A DNA stretch of 64,000 bases from IMG/VR virus record IMGVR_UViG_3300025261_000058, one strand, 5' to 3'. Under the pieces are notes generated by a model that worked only from the letters and a program-made list of their open reading frames with translations, was not told where the DNA came from and ran no database searches. A program made the position numbers and the translations under genes. This document shows, piece by piece, positions 3,191 to 49,686 of this stretch (positions are counted from its first letter, which is position 1; each line of letters opens with the position of its first letter). The DNA comes from an uncultured virus (IMG/VR IMGVR_UViG_3300025261_000058) (lineage: Duplodnaviria; Heunggongvirae; Uroviricota; Caudoviricetes).

Positions 3191-3577
3191 TTAAGCAGTT
3201 GCGGGGCCGTTGCCCCAATGCGACCAGCCAAAGGCGCGAACGCCTAACCACATGGCTTGTCGGGTAAGCCACGAGACGCCCGTTAAGGCTGACGCCTCAC
3301 GCAGAATCGCATCGGCCGTCTTGCGATCCACGATATGCGTTGAGTACGCGTAGTCATGGATGACGCTGGCCATGTTGGCAACGCCGCCGGCGAAGTCGTA
3401 GACGAAGGGGATTCTAGGCGTGCTCGCCAAGTCAGTAACGAATCCGGCCGGGACGGTGATGGTTAGCTTCGCCGCGTCAGACTGATAGACCAGCGGGGCG
3501 TTAAGCCGCCAGGTCGCCGGCCTATCCTTGATCAGGTCCGCGTCTAACACGTCATACGGCTTGACGAACGCACTCAT
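3191..3577 (-). CDS. DUF1353 family protein
   Basis: VPAGFVTDLAS.P and A.V.HDY.Y...R..AD..L motifs. Confidence 0.8.
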   Translation of the reverse strand: MSAFVKPYDVLDADLIKDRPATWRLNAPLVYQSDAAKLTITVPAGFVTDLASTPRIPFVYDFAGGVANMASVIHDYAYSTHIVDRKTADAILREASALTGVSWLTRQAMWLGVRAFGWSHWGNGPATA

Positions 3578-4244: not shown

Positions 4245-4786
4245 GCTTGCTCCTTGTGGAGTGACTTCAGTTCATCGGGTGAGTAGACGAAGCCGGGGAT
4301 CAGAAACGCCTGGACGCTCCAGACGGGGTCGCTTTCTTCGTGGCGTCCATGGCCCTTGCCGCGGTGATGAAGCTCGCAGAGGGGCAACTGGTTGTAGATC
4401 GAGTCCACAAAGGTTTCGGGCTTGGCCGGGTCGAACGATTCCCAATCGAAGCCCTGCGTCAGGCGAATCAAATCCCACACCGGATGCTTCTTGGGAATCG
4501 GCACCACGCGACCCAACTTGTGTGAGTGCATGACGTCGGTCTGGTTGAGTGCGACCGATCTAATCCAGACGAAGTCGACGGCATGGCTGTATGCCCACTC
4601 GAAAAATCGGTGATGGCTTTCCACCTTCTCGTCATCGCCGCAGACGGCGCATACATAGCCTCCCTCGGCTTTGAGTTCACGTTTGCTCGCTCGGAAGATG
4701 GCTGATTCGGTGCGGGGCTCATGGCCGGGATAAAAGACGTCTTCGGTCAGAGTCCGGTGAGTCTCGTGCGTGTCTTGTGCAGTCAT
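4241..4786 (-). CDS. His/Cys-rich hypothetical protein (HNH-like)
   Basis: CAVC...ESHH...NQLPLCELHH. Confidence 0.6.
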   Translation of the reverse strand: MTAQDTHETHRTLTEDVFYPGHEPRTESAIFRASKRELKAEGGYVCAVCGDDEKVESHHRFFEWAYSHAVDFVWIRSVALNQTDVMHSHKLGRVVPIPKKHPVWDLIRLTQGFDWESFDPAKPETFVDSIYNQLPLCELHHRGKGHGRHEESDPVWSVQAFLIPGFVYSPDELKSLHKEQA

Positions 4787-4836
4787 TTTCGTTTATTCGT
4801 TTGGCGGATATTCGGCGAATATTCGTCCGGCAGATA

Positions 4837-5307
4837 TTAGGAAGGCATAGCGCCCGTTTCCATTGCCTGGGCGAGACGCTTGGCGCGTGCGCCTACCTGA
4901 CCCGCCCACTTCGAGCTAAGCATCCCTGCCGCGGCGACTGCATACGAGCCGCGCTGCATGGCCGCGAGCGTGTTCTTGAAGCCGAGCAGGCCAGTGCCGA
5001 GTGCGGCGTTGCCGATCCCCATGTTGAAAGCCATGTTCGCGACGACTCTTTGACGAACCTCATCCATCTGTCGCCACCATGGAAGGTTGGCGTCGAGCTT
5101 GGCGAGGCTGGTTGAGATGTCGCGAGCGAGTAGCTGGTTGACCTGCGCATCCGAGAGCGGGAATGTCCAGGCGCTAGGAAGGGGCGAGACGTCCATGTTG
5201 TGACCGACTCCGCACGTGCGTTTAGGCGGCTTTGCGGTGTCCAGGTAGGGCACATACCTCACGCCTTCGTCGCGGCGCAGCTCGGCCTCGAGAAGGGCGG
5301 TATTCAT
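4837..5307 (-). CDS. Endolysin, T4-lysozyme-like glycoside hydrolase
   Basis: L.RDEG.R..PY.DT...T.GVGH, NMAFNMG, S.WA.QVG.RA.RL. Confidence 0.9.
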   Translation of the reverse strand: MNTALLEAELRRDEGVRYVPYLDTAKPPKRTCGVGHNMDVSPLPSAWTFPLSDAQVNQLLARDISTSLAKLDANLPWWRQMDEVRQRVVANMAFNMGIGNAALGTGLLGFKNTLAAMQRGSYAVAAAGMLSSKWAGQVGARAKRLAQAMETGAMPS

Positions 5308-11091: not shown

Positions 11092-12521
11092 GGGAGAACG
11101 GTTACGTCAGCAGCGACGCATTGCGCGCCTTCGTTGAACGCCAGAGAAAGATCGCCGTTCACCAGCAACTGAGCGCCGGCATTTATCGTCTTACCGGTCG
11201 CAATAGCGGGCGTGAACGTGACAGCGTTCCCGGCGATGCCCGTGATGGTCGCCGTCAGTTGGGAGCCGTCCGATTGGTTGACGATGATCGATCGACCATT
11301 CGCGAGGCTTGCCACGTTTGCGACATTGATCGTGATCGCGCCGGCGTTGTACGGACCTCCCGTGACCAGCATGTCCGAACGGCCCTGATAGATGTTCGAG
11401 ATCGGCAGGTTGTACGTGTTACTCAGCGCATCGAGTTGCGCCTGTGTCAGGCCGGAACTTGACGTCGCTGCGTCGCCGGCCAGGTTCGCCGGCCCGAACA
11501 GTTTGCCGAGATACGAGTCTTGACCGATCGCGAAGCCGGACAGGTATGCGACGATTGCATTGACGATGAGCGTCTTTGTCGTCGACACATATCCGGCCAG
11601 CGGAACGATGGTGATCTGCGTCATTACCCCAACTTCCGTCATCTCGAAGAAGTTGATCGTGATGGGTACGCCCGCGGGATCGGTCACGGTGACGGACGTC
11701 GTACCGTATGTTCCGGTGCCGGGTGACTTCTTCGCCTCGACGGTCTGGGCGATGGCTGTGATGTCTCCGCCTTCTGCGACGACGGCGATCGAATGGCCGG
11801 GGATGCCGTTCGCATCGGTCGTGCCGCCCTGGTTTTCGTAGACTTCGTATCGGCCAACGCCGGAGACGTTGCCAACTGCAGCTTTGATCGCCTGCAACGG
11901 CGTCAGCGCTGACAGAGACGTCGAGGTCGATTGGCGCTTACGCAATGCAGCGTCTGTTTCGACGGGATCGCCCGGCGTGGCGGCAACAGCATTTGTCACG
12001 GTCTGCCAACCGCGCGTCGGCGTGTTGATCGTGTTGATAGCTCCGGCAATCGCCGTGATGGTCCCGGGCTGTTGTGCCGTCGCAGTGACGTCAATGGTGC
12101 CGCTGACAGGGATGGTCACAGACGCAGGCAGGTTCCACAGATTCCTGTTCGTGTCCTGTACGACGCCATTGATGATCGGCGTTCCTACCTGGCCACCGAG
12201 CGTTACGACTGCAGTGCTGTTGCTCGATGAATCTCGGCGTAGGCCATTGATCTTGACCTGGCTGGACAGCGCCGCACCTTGAGCATACGAGGGGGAGTAA
12301 CCGTTGTACGTTGTGACGTCGGCCTGATTGCCGTCGTTGATGATTTGAGCCAGAACGGCAAGCCACTGACCGTCCTGGCTATCCGGCTCGATATAGATGT
12401 CGCTGCCGTATATTGACTGGAAGCTTGCCTGTAACGACGCCAGTACGTCCGCGTAGCTCGGCGCACTGATCCCATTCTCGTCAATCGTGCAAGCCAGAGT
12501 TGCAAGCGGAAAAGTTGCCAT
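11088..12521 (-). CDS. Baseplate J/gp47-like protein
   Basis: G...ETDA.LR.R; synteny. Confidence 0.88.
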   Translation of the reverse strand: MATFPLATLACTIDENGISAPSYADVLASLQASFQSIYGSDIYIEPDSQDGQWLAVLAQIINDGNQADVTTYNGYSPSYAQGAALSSQVKINGLRRDSSSNSTAVVTLGGQVGTPIINGVVQDTNRNLWNLPASVTIPVSGTIDVTATAQQPGTITAIAGAINTINTPTRGWQTVTNAVAATPGDPVETDAALRKRQSTSTSLSALTPLQAIKAAVGNVSGVGRYEVYENQGGTTDANGIPGHSIAVVAEGGDITAIAQTVEAKKSPGTGTYGTTSVTVTDPAGVPITINFFEMTEVGVMTQITIVPLAGYVSTTKTLIVNAIVAYLSGFAIGQDSYLGKLFGPANLAGDAATSSSGLTQAQLDALSNTYNLPISNIYQGRSDMLVTGGPYNAGAITINVANVASLANGRSIIVNQSDGSQLTATITGIAGNAVTFTPAIATGKTINAGAQLLVNGDLSLAFNEGAQCVAADVTVLP

Positions 12522-47065: not shown

Positions 47066-47136
47066 GCTTTTTGCTTTGCTAAATCAAATCTTTTTGCACG
47101 TTGATCAAAATGATTGATCCCGTCATCATTCGCACC

Positions 47137-47895
47137 ATGAAAACGGTGAAAGAGATCCGGTTAGAGAATGCGCGCGCGCTCGCACACGAGGGCCCGGCCG
47201 AGTTCGCGCGTCGAATAGACAGCAGCACGCAGCAGGTCAATCAGTTCATGGGGCCGTCGCCGACTCGCAACATCGGCGACAAACTGGCGCGCCGTATCGA
47301 GGGGGCGTTTGGCAAGCCAGAAGGGTGGCTTGACGTCGAGCACATAACCGGCAGCGCCGATGCATCAATCAGCGGAACAAGGTCAGCCGTACTCGAGAAA
47401 TTGCTGCCAGAAGGAAGCGGTAACTTAGTCACATGGGAGACCCCGGAAGATCTCGAGCCCGACGACGACCGGGTGTGGATCGACCGTTATGACTATCGTT
47501 ACTCAGCGGGGAATGGCGTGATTCAATGGGAAGTACGACAAAAAAAGGCGCTGCCGTTTGATATCGGTTTCTTCAAGGCCCTTGGTGTGCGCCCACAGGA
47601 TTGCAGGTTGGCCCAGGTTCACGGTCGGAGCATGGAGCCGTATCTGTTCAATAAAGACATGATGATGATTTGCATGGCGAAGAACCGGGTGAAGGACGGT
47701 CTGATTTACGCCGTGACGTTTCAGGATGAACCGCTGGTGAAGCAGATCTTTAAGGAGCCGGAGGGCGCTCTGAGGCTGCATTCCTACAATCCAGAGTTTC
47801 CCGACAAGATCATCGCCGCGGACCAGCTGGAAGGGCTTCAGATCGCCGGAGAGGTTGTGTATCGATCCGGTTCAGGCTTGGCCGGCGGTAATTAA
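47137..47895 (+). CDS. CI-like repressor, HTH plus S24 peptidase
   Basis: RNIG..LAR.IE......GWLD; SAG cleavage site, G.SMEP, VKQ, S.NP. Confidence 0.92.
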   Translation: MKTVKEIRLENARALAHEGPAEFARRIDSSTQQVNQFMGPSPTRNIGDKLARRIEGAFGKPEGWLDVEHITGSADASISGTRSAVLEKLLPEGSGNLVTWETPEDLEPDDDRVWIDRYDYRYSAGNGVIQWEVRQKKALPFDIGFFKALGVRPQDCRLAQVHGRSMEPYLFNKDMMMICMAKNRVKDGLIYAVTFQDEPLVKQIFKEPEGALRLHSYNPEFPDKIIAADQLEGLQIAGEVVYRSGSGLAGGN

Positions 47896-47968
47896 GACCG
47901 CTAAAAACCACAAATACGGGGTAGCCGATGGCGGTCGATCTGACTGACCATCTTTGCAGCACTGAACG

Positions 47969-47995
47969 ACCCGGCCTCGGCCGGGTTTTTCATTT
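47969..47995 (+). terminator. Intrinsic terminator after cI
   Basis: ACCCGGC-CTCG-GCCGGGT plus TTTTCATTT. Confidence 0.8.
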
Positions 47996-48190
47996 CCGCC
48001 TCTGCTCGAAGCCCTCCCGCCATAACGTAGCACCGACCGACGTCAACACGGCCAGGTCGTCTCCCCCGAATCTCTCCCAGTTCTGCGCAAGCCAGCCTGC
48101 GAAGCCGGCGCACGCGTAGTCAATCGGTACGTCTGCTCGGCCCTCGACGTTCAATCGCTCGAAAACCGTTATCACGTCGTCTGCGGTCAT
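47990..48190 (-). CDS. Small hypothetical protein
   Basis: GGAGG RBS; convergent with cI. Confidence 0.55.
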   Translation of the reverse strand: MTADDVITVFERLNVEGRADVPIDYACAGFAGWLAQNWERFGGDDLAVLTSVGATLWREGFEQRRK

Positions 48191-48241
48191 CTCAGCCTCC
48201 TAGTACCCACCTTCAGTCTAGACGGCGATCCCTCTATCTGA

Positions 48242-48353
48242 GCAAATCTTTATGATCTATTGAAGCTATGCAGGCGATAGAAATAATTGTTCGCTCCGAG
48301 CAAATCTTTTTGCGACATAGCGCTTGGCAAAGCAAATCAAATTGATCTATGAT
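48242..48353 (+). promoter_or_regulatory. pL with operators at 48242-48260 and 48332-48350
   Basis: TTGGCA-18bp-TATGAT; two GCAAATC-N4-TGATCTAT copies matching the pR site. Confidence 0.7.
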
Positions 48354-48399
48354 TCTCTCCATACCGCAACACAACGCAACGACGGAGAAGGGGATTGAA

Positions 48400-48606
48400 A
48401 TGAGCCCGAACAACCTTAATGCATTCCGCGCGATTGACGAAGTCTTCGACGGAACTTTCATGTTGACGTTTGGCGGCCCGCTCGACGCACCGGAGATGAT
48501 TCCGAACGGCTCGATGGTCGCGCATGAATGCCACACGATCCTCGCCGGTTCAGCACTTCGCTTGGGCGCGCACAACAAACCGTGCATATCGTTCCAGGTG
48601 CGCTAA
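48400..48606 (+). CDS. First pL gene, hypothetical protein
   Basis: Purine-rich RBS; 68 aa. Confidence 0.6.
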   Translation: MSPNNLNAFRAIDEVFDGTFMLTFGGPLDAPEMIPNGSMVAHECHTILAGSALRLGAHNKPCISFQVR

Positions 48607-48608
48607 CA

Positions 48609-48658
48609 GGTCGAAACCGCTTCGGCGGTCTGAGCGTAAGGCGCTCACTGACGAGACC
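48609..48658 (+). ncRNA. Type II hammerhead ribozyme
   Basis: GGTC-GAAA-CCGC(TTCG)GCGG-TC-TGAGCG(TAAGG)CGCTCA-CTGACGA-GACC: complete core and three perfect stems. Confidence 0.92.
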
Positions 48659-49350
48659 GTGAATTACCCGCAGTAGAAGCACCCGCCCCGGCAGAGCCGG
48701 ATCGCGGTTTGGGTCTTTAAGCGTAATCGGAAAGATAAACGGACGTGAAACAGTCGTCCAGACACGTTGGTGTCCCTCCCTTGGCCTGGCTCGGAGGAAG
48801 AAGAAAGAGCCTGAAACGAGGACAGATGATCCTCAGATGCGAAAGCATCGCCCAGCACACCGTGGCGCGGTAACGGGTGCAAACCATGCGGGATCGGGAG
48901 ACAGACTGGTCCCGCATGTGTAGCAGTTTTTCTGAGAGAGCCGCTGAGCTCCCGTCACAGACTGAGTATCCGCCGTTAGTAGCCGCATAGATCCGTGGTC
49001 CCCCATAACCCGGTAGCGCCGAACCCGGCTCGAAGGTCTCCCTGATAGCAACAGCGCTCTCTCAGAAACACTGCACCGAAATTGCACCCAGGTAGATGGA
49101 CATCAAACTCCATCGGTGTGTGCGACTCGCTGGCGGACGAGTGATAAAGACTTCGCCTCCACACCCTTTGAAGCGCGGGCCTGGCAAGCTGTGGATAGGG
49201 TCACGAGAACGGTTCTACGCCAACGAACGCCGGATACGTAACCGGCACGAATTCTGAGTCCCCTAGCCGCGGCCGATTCGCTGAGTCGGCGGCGGTTAGG
49301 TGATTCTCACATGATGGCATTCAGTACAACTTATTTCATCGGGATTTGAA

Positions 49351-49686
49351 ATGGCGATGACGTCGCTGATGGCGTCGCTAAAGAGATTGGAGGCTGATAT
49401 GAAGATGATCGAGAAAGCTGTAGCGAGACAGGATGACGAGGCTGATGACGACATTGAGGAAGCTCGCGAAATCCTCAAGTCATTAATCGAGAACATCCGG
49501 GCGGATGGGCATTACTCGATAGAGGCAACTTGTACCTTTATCCAACAGGCCATGAACTGCCTTCCCATGACCACTGATATCCGGCCGATAAGCATCGATC
49601 TTGATTCTCCGCGCAGGGTTGTATTGGTTTTCAGAACCGCTGCCGATGCCGAAGCGTGGATCGCTAGTCAAGAGATTGGAGGTTGA
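49351..49686 (+). CDS. Hypothetical protein
   Basis: ORF after the structured leader. Confidence 0.5.
   Translation: MAMTSLMASLKRLEADMKMIEKAVARQDDEADDDIEEAREILKSLIENIRADGHYSIEATCTFIQQAMNCLPMTTDIRPISIDLDSPRRVVLVFRTAADAEAWIASQEIGG

What the first reader, a model, noticed from the sequence alone, without database searches (positions are those of the whole stretch)
48609..48658. Perfect type II hammerhead ribozyme immediately after the first pL gene
Seen: intact CUGACGA and GAAA core, GUC triplet (cleavage predicted after C48630) and three fully paired stems, starting 3 nt after the stop of ORF 48400-48606. Known: hammerheads occur in phages with unclear roles. Inference: self-cleavage detaches the first cistron and creates a 5'-OH end for the downstream structured RNA tract and early genes.
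Basis: partly seen in the sequence, partly recalled or inferred. Interest (0 to 1): 0.7.

Follow-up and report, generated by a model that had tools for sequence, protein, structure and literature searches.

The report
Phage pL type II hammerhead ribozyme
A temperate Burkholderia-group phage carries a complete hammerhead self-cutting RNA motif two bases behind its first early gene, where it likely cuts that gene's message off a long non-coding RNA; it is an ordinary new member of a phage ribozyme kind described in 2011.

Summary
Confirmed. 48609-48658 is a complete type II hammerhead, with the cut predicted after C48630. It is the only one in the genome, and none arose in 150 shuffles. A pseudoknot is not supported. 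Twelve pL-type copies pair fully, with compensatory changes at all six stem I pairs. The hammerhead of phage Bcep176, assayed in 2011, has the same build and also sits 2 nt behind an early gene's stop. Most relatives separate two genes. Here and in several Burkholderiaceae lambdoid phages the ribozyme instead precedes a hairpin, a boxA-like site about 45-57 nt away and a long non-coding tract. It is optional: 3 of 17 pL regions found without using it carry one. Best reading: a constitutive processing site that leaves both pieces with hairpin-capped ends; cleavage is untested. The scan found this arrangement before in other genomes (e1-8187281, e1-8187586, e1-8349809). Known kind, modest interest.

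The parts
48608..48658 (+). Type II hammerhead ribozyme (stem II open, 4 bp; stem III 5 bp with UUCG; stem I 6 bp with a 5-nt loop); cut predicted after C48630
   Evidence: Sequence; fold; genome scan and shuffles; covariation in 12 pL-type copies
48608..48608 (+). A just 5' of stem II, the positional equivalent of the last A of loop II; predicted Hoogsteen partner of U48637
   Evidence: A in 165 of 171 distinct relatives, not part of the search pattern; contact described for type I/III ribozymes in PMC11875169
48637..48637 (+). U1.7, first base of loop I; predicted tertiary partner of A48608
   Evidence: U in 166 of 171 relatives; 151 of 153 with a 17-nt stem-loop I
48400..48606 (+). First pL gene, 68 aa, function unknown; SD-like GGAGAAGGGG at 48384-48393
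   Evidence: Two homologues at 74% and 69% identity over the full length; no PHROG family; no usable Atlas hit
48324..48353 (+). pL promoter-like site TTGGCA-18-TATGAT, overlapped by an operator-like repeat
   Evidence: a consensus match alone is at chance level: 2 found, 1.8 expected; the motif [AC]AAATC-W4-TG occurs 4 times in the genome, at 47085, 48243, 48301 and 48333; similar -10 context in relatives
48683..48707 (+). Hairpin between the ribozyme and the boxA-like site; the sister phage's sequence diverges right after it
   Evidence: the inner stem CCGGC/GCCGG reads CCAAC/GTTGG in L176; divergence point
48712..48723 (+). boxA-like site (core TCTTTAA at 48714-48720), 53 nt after the ribozyme; more degenerate than in relatives
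   Evidence: Burkholderiaceae rrn leaders have TGTTCTTTAAAA or GATCTTTAAAA about 190-205 nt before the 16S primer site; relatives have GATCTTTAACA or GCTCTTTAACA
48659..49350 (+). Non-coding modular tract that would head the 3' cleavage product; the first start codon with an SD-like motif is 740 nt after the ribozyme
   Evidence: structured windows at 48811-48960 (z -3.7) and 49261-49410 (z -3.6), while 7 of the 12 windows are above z -1; replaced in the sister phage
47101..47895 (+). cI-like repressor, context for the pL assignment
   Evidence: phrog_4, E 1.9e-25
47968..47995 (+). Intrinsic-terminator-like hairpin after cI, upstream of pL
47990..48190 (-). Small antisense-oriented gene (phrog_21839) between cI and pL, used as a marker to find related pL regions

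Best explanation
This is an intact type II hammerhead motif that likely cuts the phage's pL early transcript constitutively after C48630, which would split the first-gene message from the boxA-led non-coding RNA and early genes behind it. Shown by sequence and comparison: the core, three stems under compensatory selection, the conserved A48608/U48637 pair of positions, and the location 2 nt behind a stop codon. Inferred: (1) with a 4-bp stem II and a 6-bp stem I, the A-U Hoogsteen contact replaces the pseudoknot and gives cleavage on a scale of seconds to a minute; (2) only the 4-bp stem II links the products, so they part and do not re-ligate; (3) the upstream piece (about 270 nt) ends in the stem III hairpin plus a 2',3'-cyclic phosphate, and the downstream piece starts with a 5'-OH directly on the stem I hairpin; both ends are predicted to slow exonuclease and 5'-monophosphate-dependent RNase E attack; (4) the net effect would be to uncouple the lifetime of a swappable first gene from that of the rest of the operon. 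It is an optional module, not a core switch.
For: Unique in the genome, 0 in 150 shuffles. 170 of 171 pattern matches in the fetched loci, duplicates included, fold as hammerheads although the pattern fixed neither stem I nor most of stem III. In 12 pL-type copies 156 of 156 cells pair, all 6 stem I pairs change on both sides, and slid controls pair 25-44%. Among 171 distinct relatives, a stop lies within 15 nt upstream in 104 (background 10%) and an SD plus start within 40 nt downstream in 148 (background 23%): the kind is a gene-boundary cutter. Native 5' flanks hinder the fold less than shuffled ones: native worse than the shuffle mean in 43 of 162, as expected for constitutive folding. The gene in front differs among pL copies. 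Perreault 2011 showed cleavage of prophage polycistronic RNAs in vitro and in E. coli, and 14 of 18 consensus hammerheads tested were active.
Against: No cleavage or transcript data for this phage. In nearest-neighbour models the three stems form together with probability about 0.5 in isolation but 0.2 or less, often under 0.01, with naked native 5' flanks; these models ignore the tertiary core. The ribozyme is missing from most related pL regions (14 of 17), so any benefit is small or conditional. The stabilising effect of the ends is recalled general knowledge, and RNase E can also cut without 5' sensing (PMC2948425, listing only). One study found the U1.7 contact not essential for enhanced rates in trans (PMC11875169).
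Confidence: 0.65

Rival explanations
1. The cut serves the downstream RNA: it matures the 5' end of the boxA-led structured RNA, or frees it from the ribosome-loaded first cistron so that host Nus factors can assemble an rrn-like antitermination complex.
For: A boxA-like site follows at 49-57 nt in the window, L010, L035, L133, L162 and L173; similar spacing by eye in L176, L196 and L142. It resembles the host rrn leader signal. The copies were fetched partly with downstream motifs, which biases the spacing.
Against: Most boxA-bearing pL regions lack the ribozyme. In Bcep176 the boxA-like site lies about 640 nt upstream of it, and in L172 a gene follows without boxA. Polymerase reaches boxA 1-2 s after the ribozyme is made (elongation rate recalled), while a minimal A-U-contact hammerhead ran at 0.6 per min at 0.5 mM Mg2+ (PMC11875169 table): too slow unless polymerase pauses.
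Confidence: 0.15
2. Cleavage is gated by translation of the first gene: a ribosome on the stop codon covers A48608 and the GGUC-GAAA strand, or the naked end of the ORF forms an anti-hammerhead helix.
For: The stop-to-stem II distance peaks at 0-4 nt (88 of 171), within a terminating ribosome's footprint (recalled). Holding the ORF unpaired raises the predicted fold from 0.006 to 0.49 for 48361-48662.
Against: The competing helix is no stronger than chance: 25-77% of 200 shuffled flanks are at least as inhibitory. Several pL copies lie 25-190 nt from the nearest stop found (L133, L142, L162, L182). Short spacing is also explained by compact genomes.
Confidence: 0.1
3. The motif is a near-neutral hitchhiker that survives as part of a conserved joint for modular recombination; it may cut, but with little effect on fitness.
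For: Patchy presence (3 of 17). Relics keeping only the 5' half follow the first gene in L136 and L158. An A6C slow variant exists in Bcep176. Exchanges occur on both sides: different genes upstream, and a different tract downstream in the sister phage.
Against: Compensatory changes at every stem I pair with a near-invariant core need selection on the RNA fold; a DNA joint would conserve sequence rather than pairing.
Confidence: 0.1

Closest known systems
Hammerhead of Burkholderia phage Bcep176 (NC_007497.1 12168-12237; Perreault et al. 2011, PMC3088659)
   Same: Type II, A before GGUC, 4-bp stem II, 17-nt stem-loop I with U1.7, 2 nt behind the stop of a short gene (gp32) in the left early region; the paper's primer matches this site.
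   Different: Bcep176 has A6C (kobs under 0.1 per min), a longer stem III, and its boxA-like site upstream; the window has a consensus core with the boxA-like site 53 nt downstream.
Type II hammerheads of bacteria and prophages, Rfam RF02276 (Perreault 2011)
   Same: Same core, topology and prophage intergenic setting; the paper already proposes processing of long phage transcripts into gene-length mRNAs and scored the U..A loop contact for type II (Fig. S5 text).
   Different: The Rfam model has a 2-bp stem II and a longer stem-loop I, and the paper's consensus includes a loop I / 3'-tail pseudoknot. This subclass has a 4-bp stem II and no pseudoknot enrichment (23 of 153 against a control mean of 22.7). 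0 of 61 subclass members in 20 loci reached the gathering score, while 2 of the 6 other hammerheads there did.
Minimal hammerhead with the AL4:U1.7 Hoogsteen contact (sTRSV / Schistosoma; O'Rourke et al. as described in PMC11875169)
   Same: 4-bp stem II, U seven bases 3' of the cut, A at the position of the last loop II base.
   Different: Here loop II is open, so the A is a 5' dangling base next to a stop codon; the contact is inferred from conservation, not shown.
Lambda pL leader (nutL boxA-boxB followed by an RNase III site; recalled)
   Same: A processing site and a boxA-like signal near the start of the left early transcript.
   Different: The cut is RNA-catalysed, lies upstream of boxA and leaves a 5'-OH; no N gene or boxB was identified here.

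Membership tests
Hammerhead ribozyme, type II | Core C3-U4-G5-A6-N7-G8-A9 and G12-A13-A14 | tested here: met
   CUGACGA 48648-54 and GAA 48613-15
Hammerhead ribozyme, type II | A15.1-U16.1 pair and NUH triplet | tested here: met
   A48616-U48629, GUC ending at 48630
Hammerhead ribozyme, type II | Three helices; I and III closed by loops, II open | tested here: met
   Fold; 156 of 156 cells paired in 12 copies
Hammerhead ribozyme, type II | A tertiary contact aligning stems I and II | tested here: inconclusive
   U1.7, the 5' A and a purine after stem II are present and conserved (164 of 171 for A and U; 151 of 171 purine); the penultimate loop pyrimidine is absent (G; variable in the family). 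The contact itself was not observed.
Hammerhead ribozyme, type II | Site-specific self-cleavage giving 2',3'-cyclic phosphate and 5'-OH | not testable with these tools
   Needs an assay or end-mapping reads
Rfam RF02276 / Perreault pseudoknot consensus | Loop I pairs with the 3' tail (pseudoknot, 4 bp or more) | tested here: not met
   A 4-bp GUAA/UUAC match exists in the window, L133 and L176 but is broken in L162, L173, L172 and L156, which have the same loop start; no enrichment in the family
Rfam RF02276 / Perreault pseudoknot consensus | Score at or above the gathering threshold (37 bits) | tested here: not met
   No hit; the subclass is generally missed
Lambdoid nut / rrn antitermination site (downstream neighbour) | boxA sequence | tested here: inconclusive
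   The TCTTTAA core matches host rrn leaders but the 3' bases differ; clearer in relatives
Lambdoid nut / rrn antitermination site (downstream neighbour) | boxB bound by an N protein, or demonstrated Nus-dependent read-through | not tested
   No N-like gene was searched for systematically; function not testable here

The most novel reading that the evidence does not exclude
In Burkholderiaceae lambdoid phages the ribozyme, hairpin and boxA form one cassette: the hammerhead, timed by the ribosome leaving the first gene's stop codon, severs the translated RNA from the transcribing polymerase so that host Nus factors can load an rrn-type, N-free antitermination complex. That would be a self-cleaving switch coupling translation to antitermination.
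Probability: 0.07. Interest if true: 0.75.

Novelty: new member of a known kind. Interest (0 to 1): 0.28.

Why it matters
The role of self-cleaving ribozymes in phages is still open (PMC6765202 and PMC6155905, passages seen). This single-copy, consensus-core example in a repressor-controlled early operon is a clean test case: natural relatives exist with it, without it and with relics, and a sister phage has the same ribozyme but another tract. As a side result, a large pseudoknot-free type II subclass (about 590 IMG/VR stretches for one stem II sequence alone) is missed by Rfam's gathering threshold, so phage hammerheads are under-annotated. The element itself is not surprising.

Tried and rejected
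1) Pseudoknot of loop I with the 3' tail: no enrichment, and broken in close relatives. 2) Regulatory anti-hammerhead helix from the ORF end: within chance. 3) RAGATH-16 match at 48607-48673 (21 bits, E 0.53, gathering 65.6) and a type III reading that borrows a GAAA about 80 nt downstream (E 0.54): chance-level. 4) More hammerheads in the genome: none of types I-III. 5) Expression: no RNA holder listed. Four DNA/unknown runs laid as contigs showed no listed variants, and none spans the ribozyme; neither result says anything about activity. 6) BLAST of the region against cultured phages found only pieces of the downstream tract, and chance hits for the ribozyme. 7) Neighbourhoods of the two ORF 48400 homologues could not be fetched; scans returned only the two contigs with the identical protein. 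8) L169 was a chance match inside a gene and was dropped. Of the 45 hits (26 distinct matches), most were chance; six distinct matches were recognisable pL modules, one with a ribozyme. 9) Two papers searched for the boxA sequence did not print it, so host rrn leaders were used instead. 10) Literature searches showed no paper on hammerheads in front of boxA in lambdoid pL regions. The library is open-access only, and Perreault's Dataset S1 text was cut when stored and its .doc file was unreadable, so members of this subclass may be listed there.

Full report
Observation. The + strand at 48609-48658 reads as a complete type II hammerhead: 4-bp open stem II, GAA-A, 5-bp stem III with a UUCG loop, GUC triplet ending at C48630, 6-bp stem I with a UAAGG loop, and core CUGACGA. 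The isolated motif folds into this junction as MFE and centroid. The energy z-score is modest (-1.85). The combined core-and-stem scan finds this one site in the 65,238-base genome, and no type II site in 150 dinucleotide shuffles on both strands. Rfam reports nothing at gathering level and only chance-level matches at E<=10.

Context. The genome is a temperate phage with contractile-tail genes, terminase, a RecE-like exonuclease and an integrase. Its marker-gene relatives lie in Paraburkholderia, Caballeronia, Burkholderia and Trinickia genomes. A cI-like gene (47101-47895, +) and a cro-like gene (47003-46716, -) are divergent. A terminator-like hairpin follows cI, then a small antisense-oriented gene, then a promoter-like site at 48324-48353 (alone at chance level). 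One operator-like motif occurs four times in the genome: once between cro and cI and three times around this promoter. ORF 48400-48606 has an SD-like motif and two full-length homologues at 74% and 69%. Its function is unknown. The ribozyme starts after a 2-nt spacer. Behind it are a hairpin (48683-48707), a boxA-like site (48712-48723) and about 690-740 nt without a gene start. Three rrn leaders from two Burkholderiaceae genomes carry TGTTCTTTAAAA or GATCTTTAAAA at the expected place; the other five loci fetched were not examined, most lying too near contig ends. The window's copy matches the TCTTTAA core only.

Family. A pattern fixing stem II and the core hit an estimated 590 stretches of IMG/VR; 125 were returned, from 13 of 64 parts. 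170 of 171 matches, duplicates and window copies included, fold as hammerheads. Scanning those loci gave 171 distinct ribozymes without the window's copies. Positions outside the pattern are strongly fixed: A before stem II in 165, U at 1.7 in 166, both in 164, and a 17-nt stem-loop I in 153. Stem I pairs 1-6 vary freely but stay paired. Loop-to-tail pairing of 4 bp or more occurs in 23 of 153, against 22.7 in controls, so there is no pseudoknot. This is the geometry of the AL4:U1.7 Hoogsteen contact known from type I and III ribozymes (PMC11875169, passages; PMC6155905, passages), here with loop II open. Perreault's Fig. S5 already scored this contact for type II. The sample is biased towards one stem II sequence. 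In 20 loci Rfam's gathering scan found 0 of 61 such ribozymes and 2 of 6 others. The usual setting is gene-stop-ribozyme-SD-gene: a stop within 15 nt upstream in 104 of 171 (background 10%), and an SD and start within 40 nt downstream in 148 of 171 (background 23%). The window fits the first half and not the second.

The pL subset. The same slot (pL, one or a few short unrelated genes, ribozyme, hairpin, boxA-like site, long tract) is filled in L010, L035, L133, L142, L162, L173, L176 and L196. In L156 and L182 the contig ends before boxA, and in L172 a gene follows instead. Twelve copies (the window, ten of these without L142, and Bcep176) give 156 of 156 paired cells and two-sided changes at all six stem I pairs; the 0 of 500 shuffle result does not correct for relatedness, but slid controls pair only 25-44%. 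L142 has a C-A mismatch at the base of stem I. The element is optional. Among 37 loci fetched by cI or the marker gene, 19 showed a boxA-like site (17 after merging two duplicate pairs; some regex hits may be chance), and 3 of the 17 have the ribozyme in front. L136 and L158 keep only a GGTC-plus-hairpin relic behind their first gene. The pattern matched 3 of 401 sampled Burkholderiaceae genomes. A sister phage (L126/L128; also in a 740-kb contig, L183) is identical from 47891 to 48707, carries another tract, and rejoins at about 49252-49299.

Known relative. Bcep176's hammerhead lies at 12168-12237, 2 nt behind the gp32 stop in the left early region, with the same build and an A6C core. The primer in Perreault's supplement matches it, and the paper gives kobs under 0.1 per min. 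I read passages, sections 6 and 11, the text of Fig. S5 and supplement searches of that paper. It reports prophage hammerheads flanking variable genes, cleavage in vitro and in E. coli, and proposes processing into gene-length mRNAs. A 2019 review says the purpose is still undefined (PMC6765202, passages).

Mechanism. Shown: motif, selection on pairing, position. Inferred: constitutive cleavage, parting of the products (only four base pairs link them), and hairpin-capped ends on both pieces (for the predicted folds; the nuclease preferences are recalled), so that the first gene's message and the rest of the operon decay independently. Against this, equilibrium models often lose the short stem II when naked flanks are included (0.2 down to under 0.01). 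But 25-77% of shuffled flanks do as much harm in the window, and across 162 family members native flanks are milder than shuffled ones, which argues against a designed off-switch. A role in antitermination is tempting from the spacing, but most boxA sites have no ribozyme, the order is reversed in Bcep176, and published rates for minimal A-U-contact ribozymes at 0.5 mM Mg2+ (0.6 per min) are slow against transcription.

Earlier notes of this scan. Three reports on other genomes describe the same arrangement, and two cover the leader behind boxA, one in this genome. They are leads, not support.

Verdict. A real, probably active, ordinary member of a published kind. Interest 0.28.

Noticed in passing
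window 48708-49251 versus L126 4309-4773: The sister phage is identical on both sides but carries a different non-coding tract of about 470 nt: a clean modular swap starting just before the boxA-like site and ending at a shared hairpin (49252-49299).
   Followed up: partly
L017, L107, L180, L190, L083, L096 and others: Arrays of 4-9 type II hammerheads, each fused to the next gene's SD; the 4-bp stem II / 17-nt stem-loop I subclass is missed by Rfam's gathering threshold (0 of 61 in 20 loci).
   Followed up: partly
L136 about 4997-5035; L158 (reverse strand) about 4655-4695; L161 (reverse strand) about 4833-4860: Relics of the ribozyme's 5' half (GGTC or similar plus a GCCGC..GCGGC hairpin) behind the first pL gene or genes; the same hairpin is the stem III extension of the intact copy in L035.
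   Followed up: partly
L035 3736-3821: A tRNA-like element (Rfam tRNA, 44 bits) embedded as one module inside the non-coding pL tract.
   Followed up: no
window 48888-48916 and 48921-49074: Long helices in the tract (a 13-bp CATGCGGGA..TCCCGCATG stem; a long stem enclosing about 100 nt); similar stem-with-insert modules recur in relatives in different orders.
   Followed up: no
L173 (reverse strand) 3214-3459 and L035 4371-4580: Small basic proteins starting with a QRTRAEILAKR motif, one as first pL gene; the arginine-rich start recalls N-type RNA-binding peptides (resemblance from memory only).
   Followed up: no
window 47990-48190 (-): Conserved 66-aa gene (phrog_21839) lying antisense between the cI terminator and pL in many Burkholderiaceae phages; function unknown.
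   Followed up: partly
window 48287-48303: Terminator-like hairpin with a T-rich tail overlapping an operator-like repeat just upstream of pL; may insulate pL from read-through.
   Followed up: no
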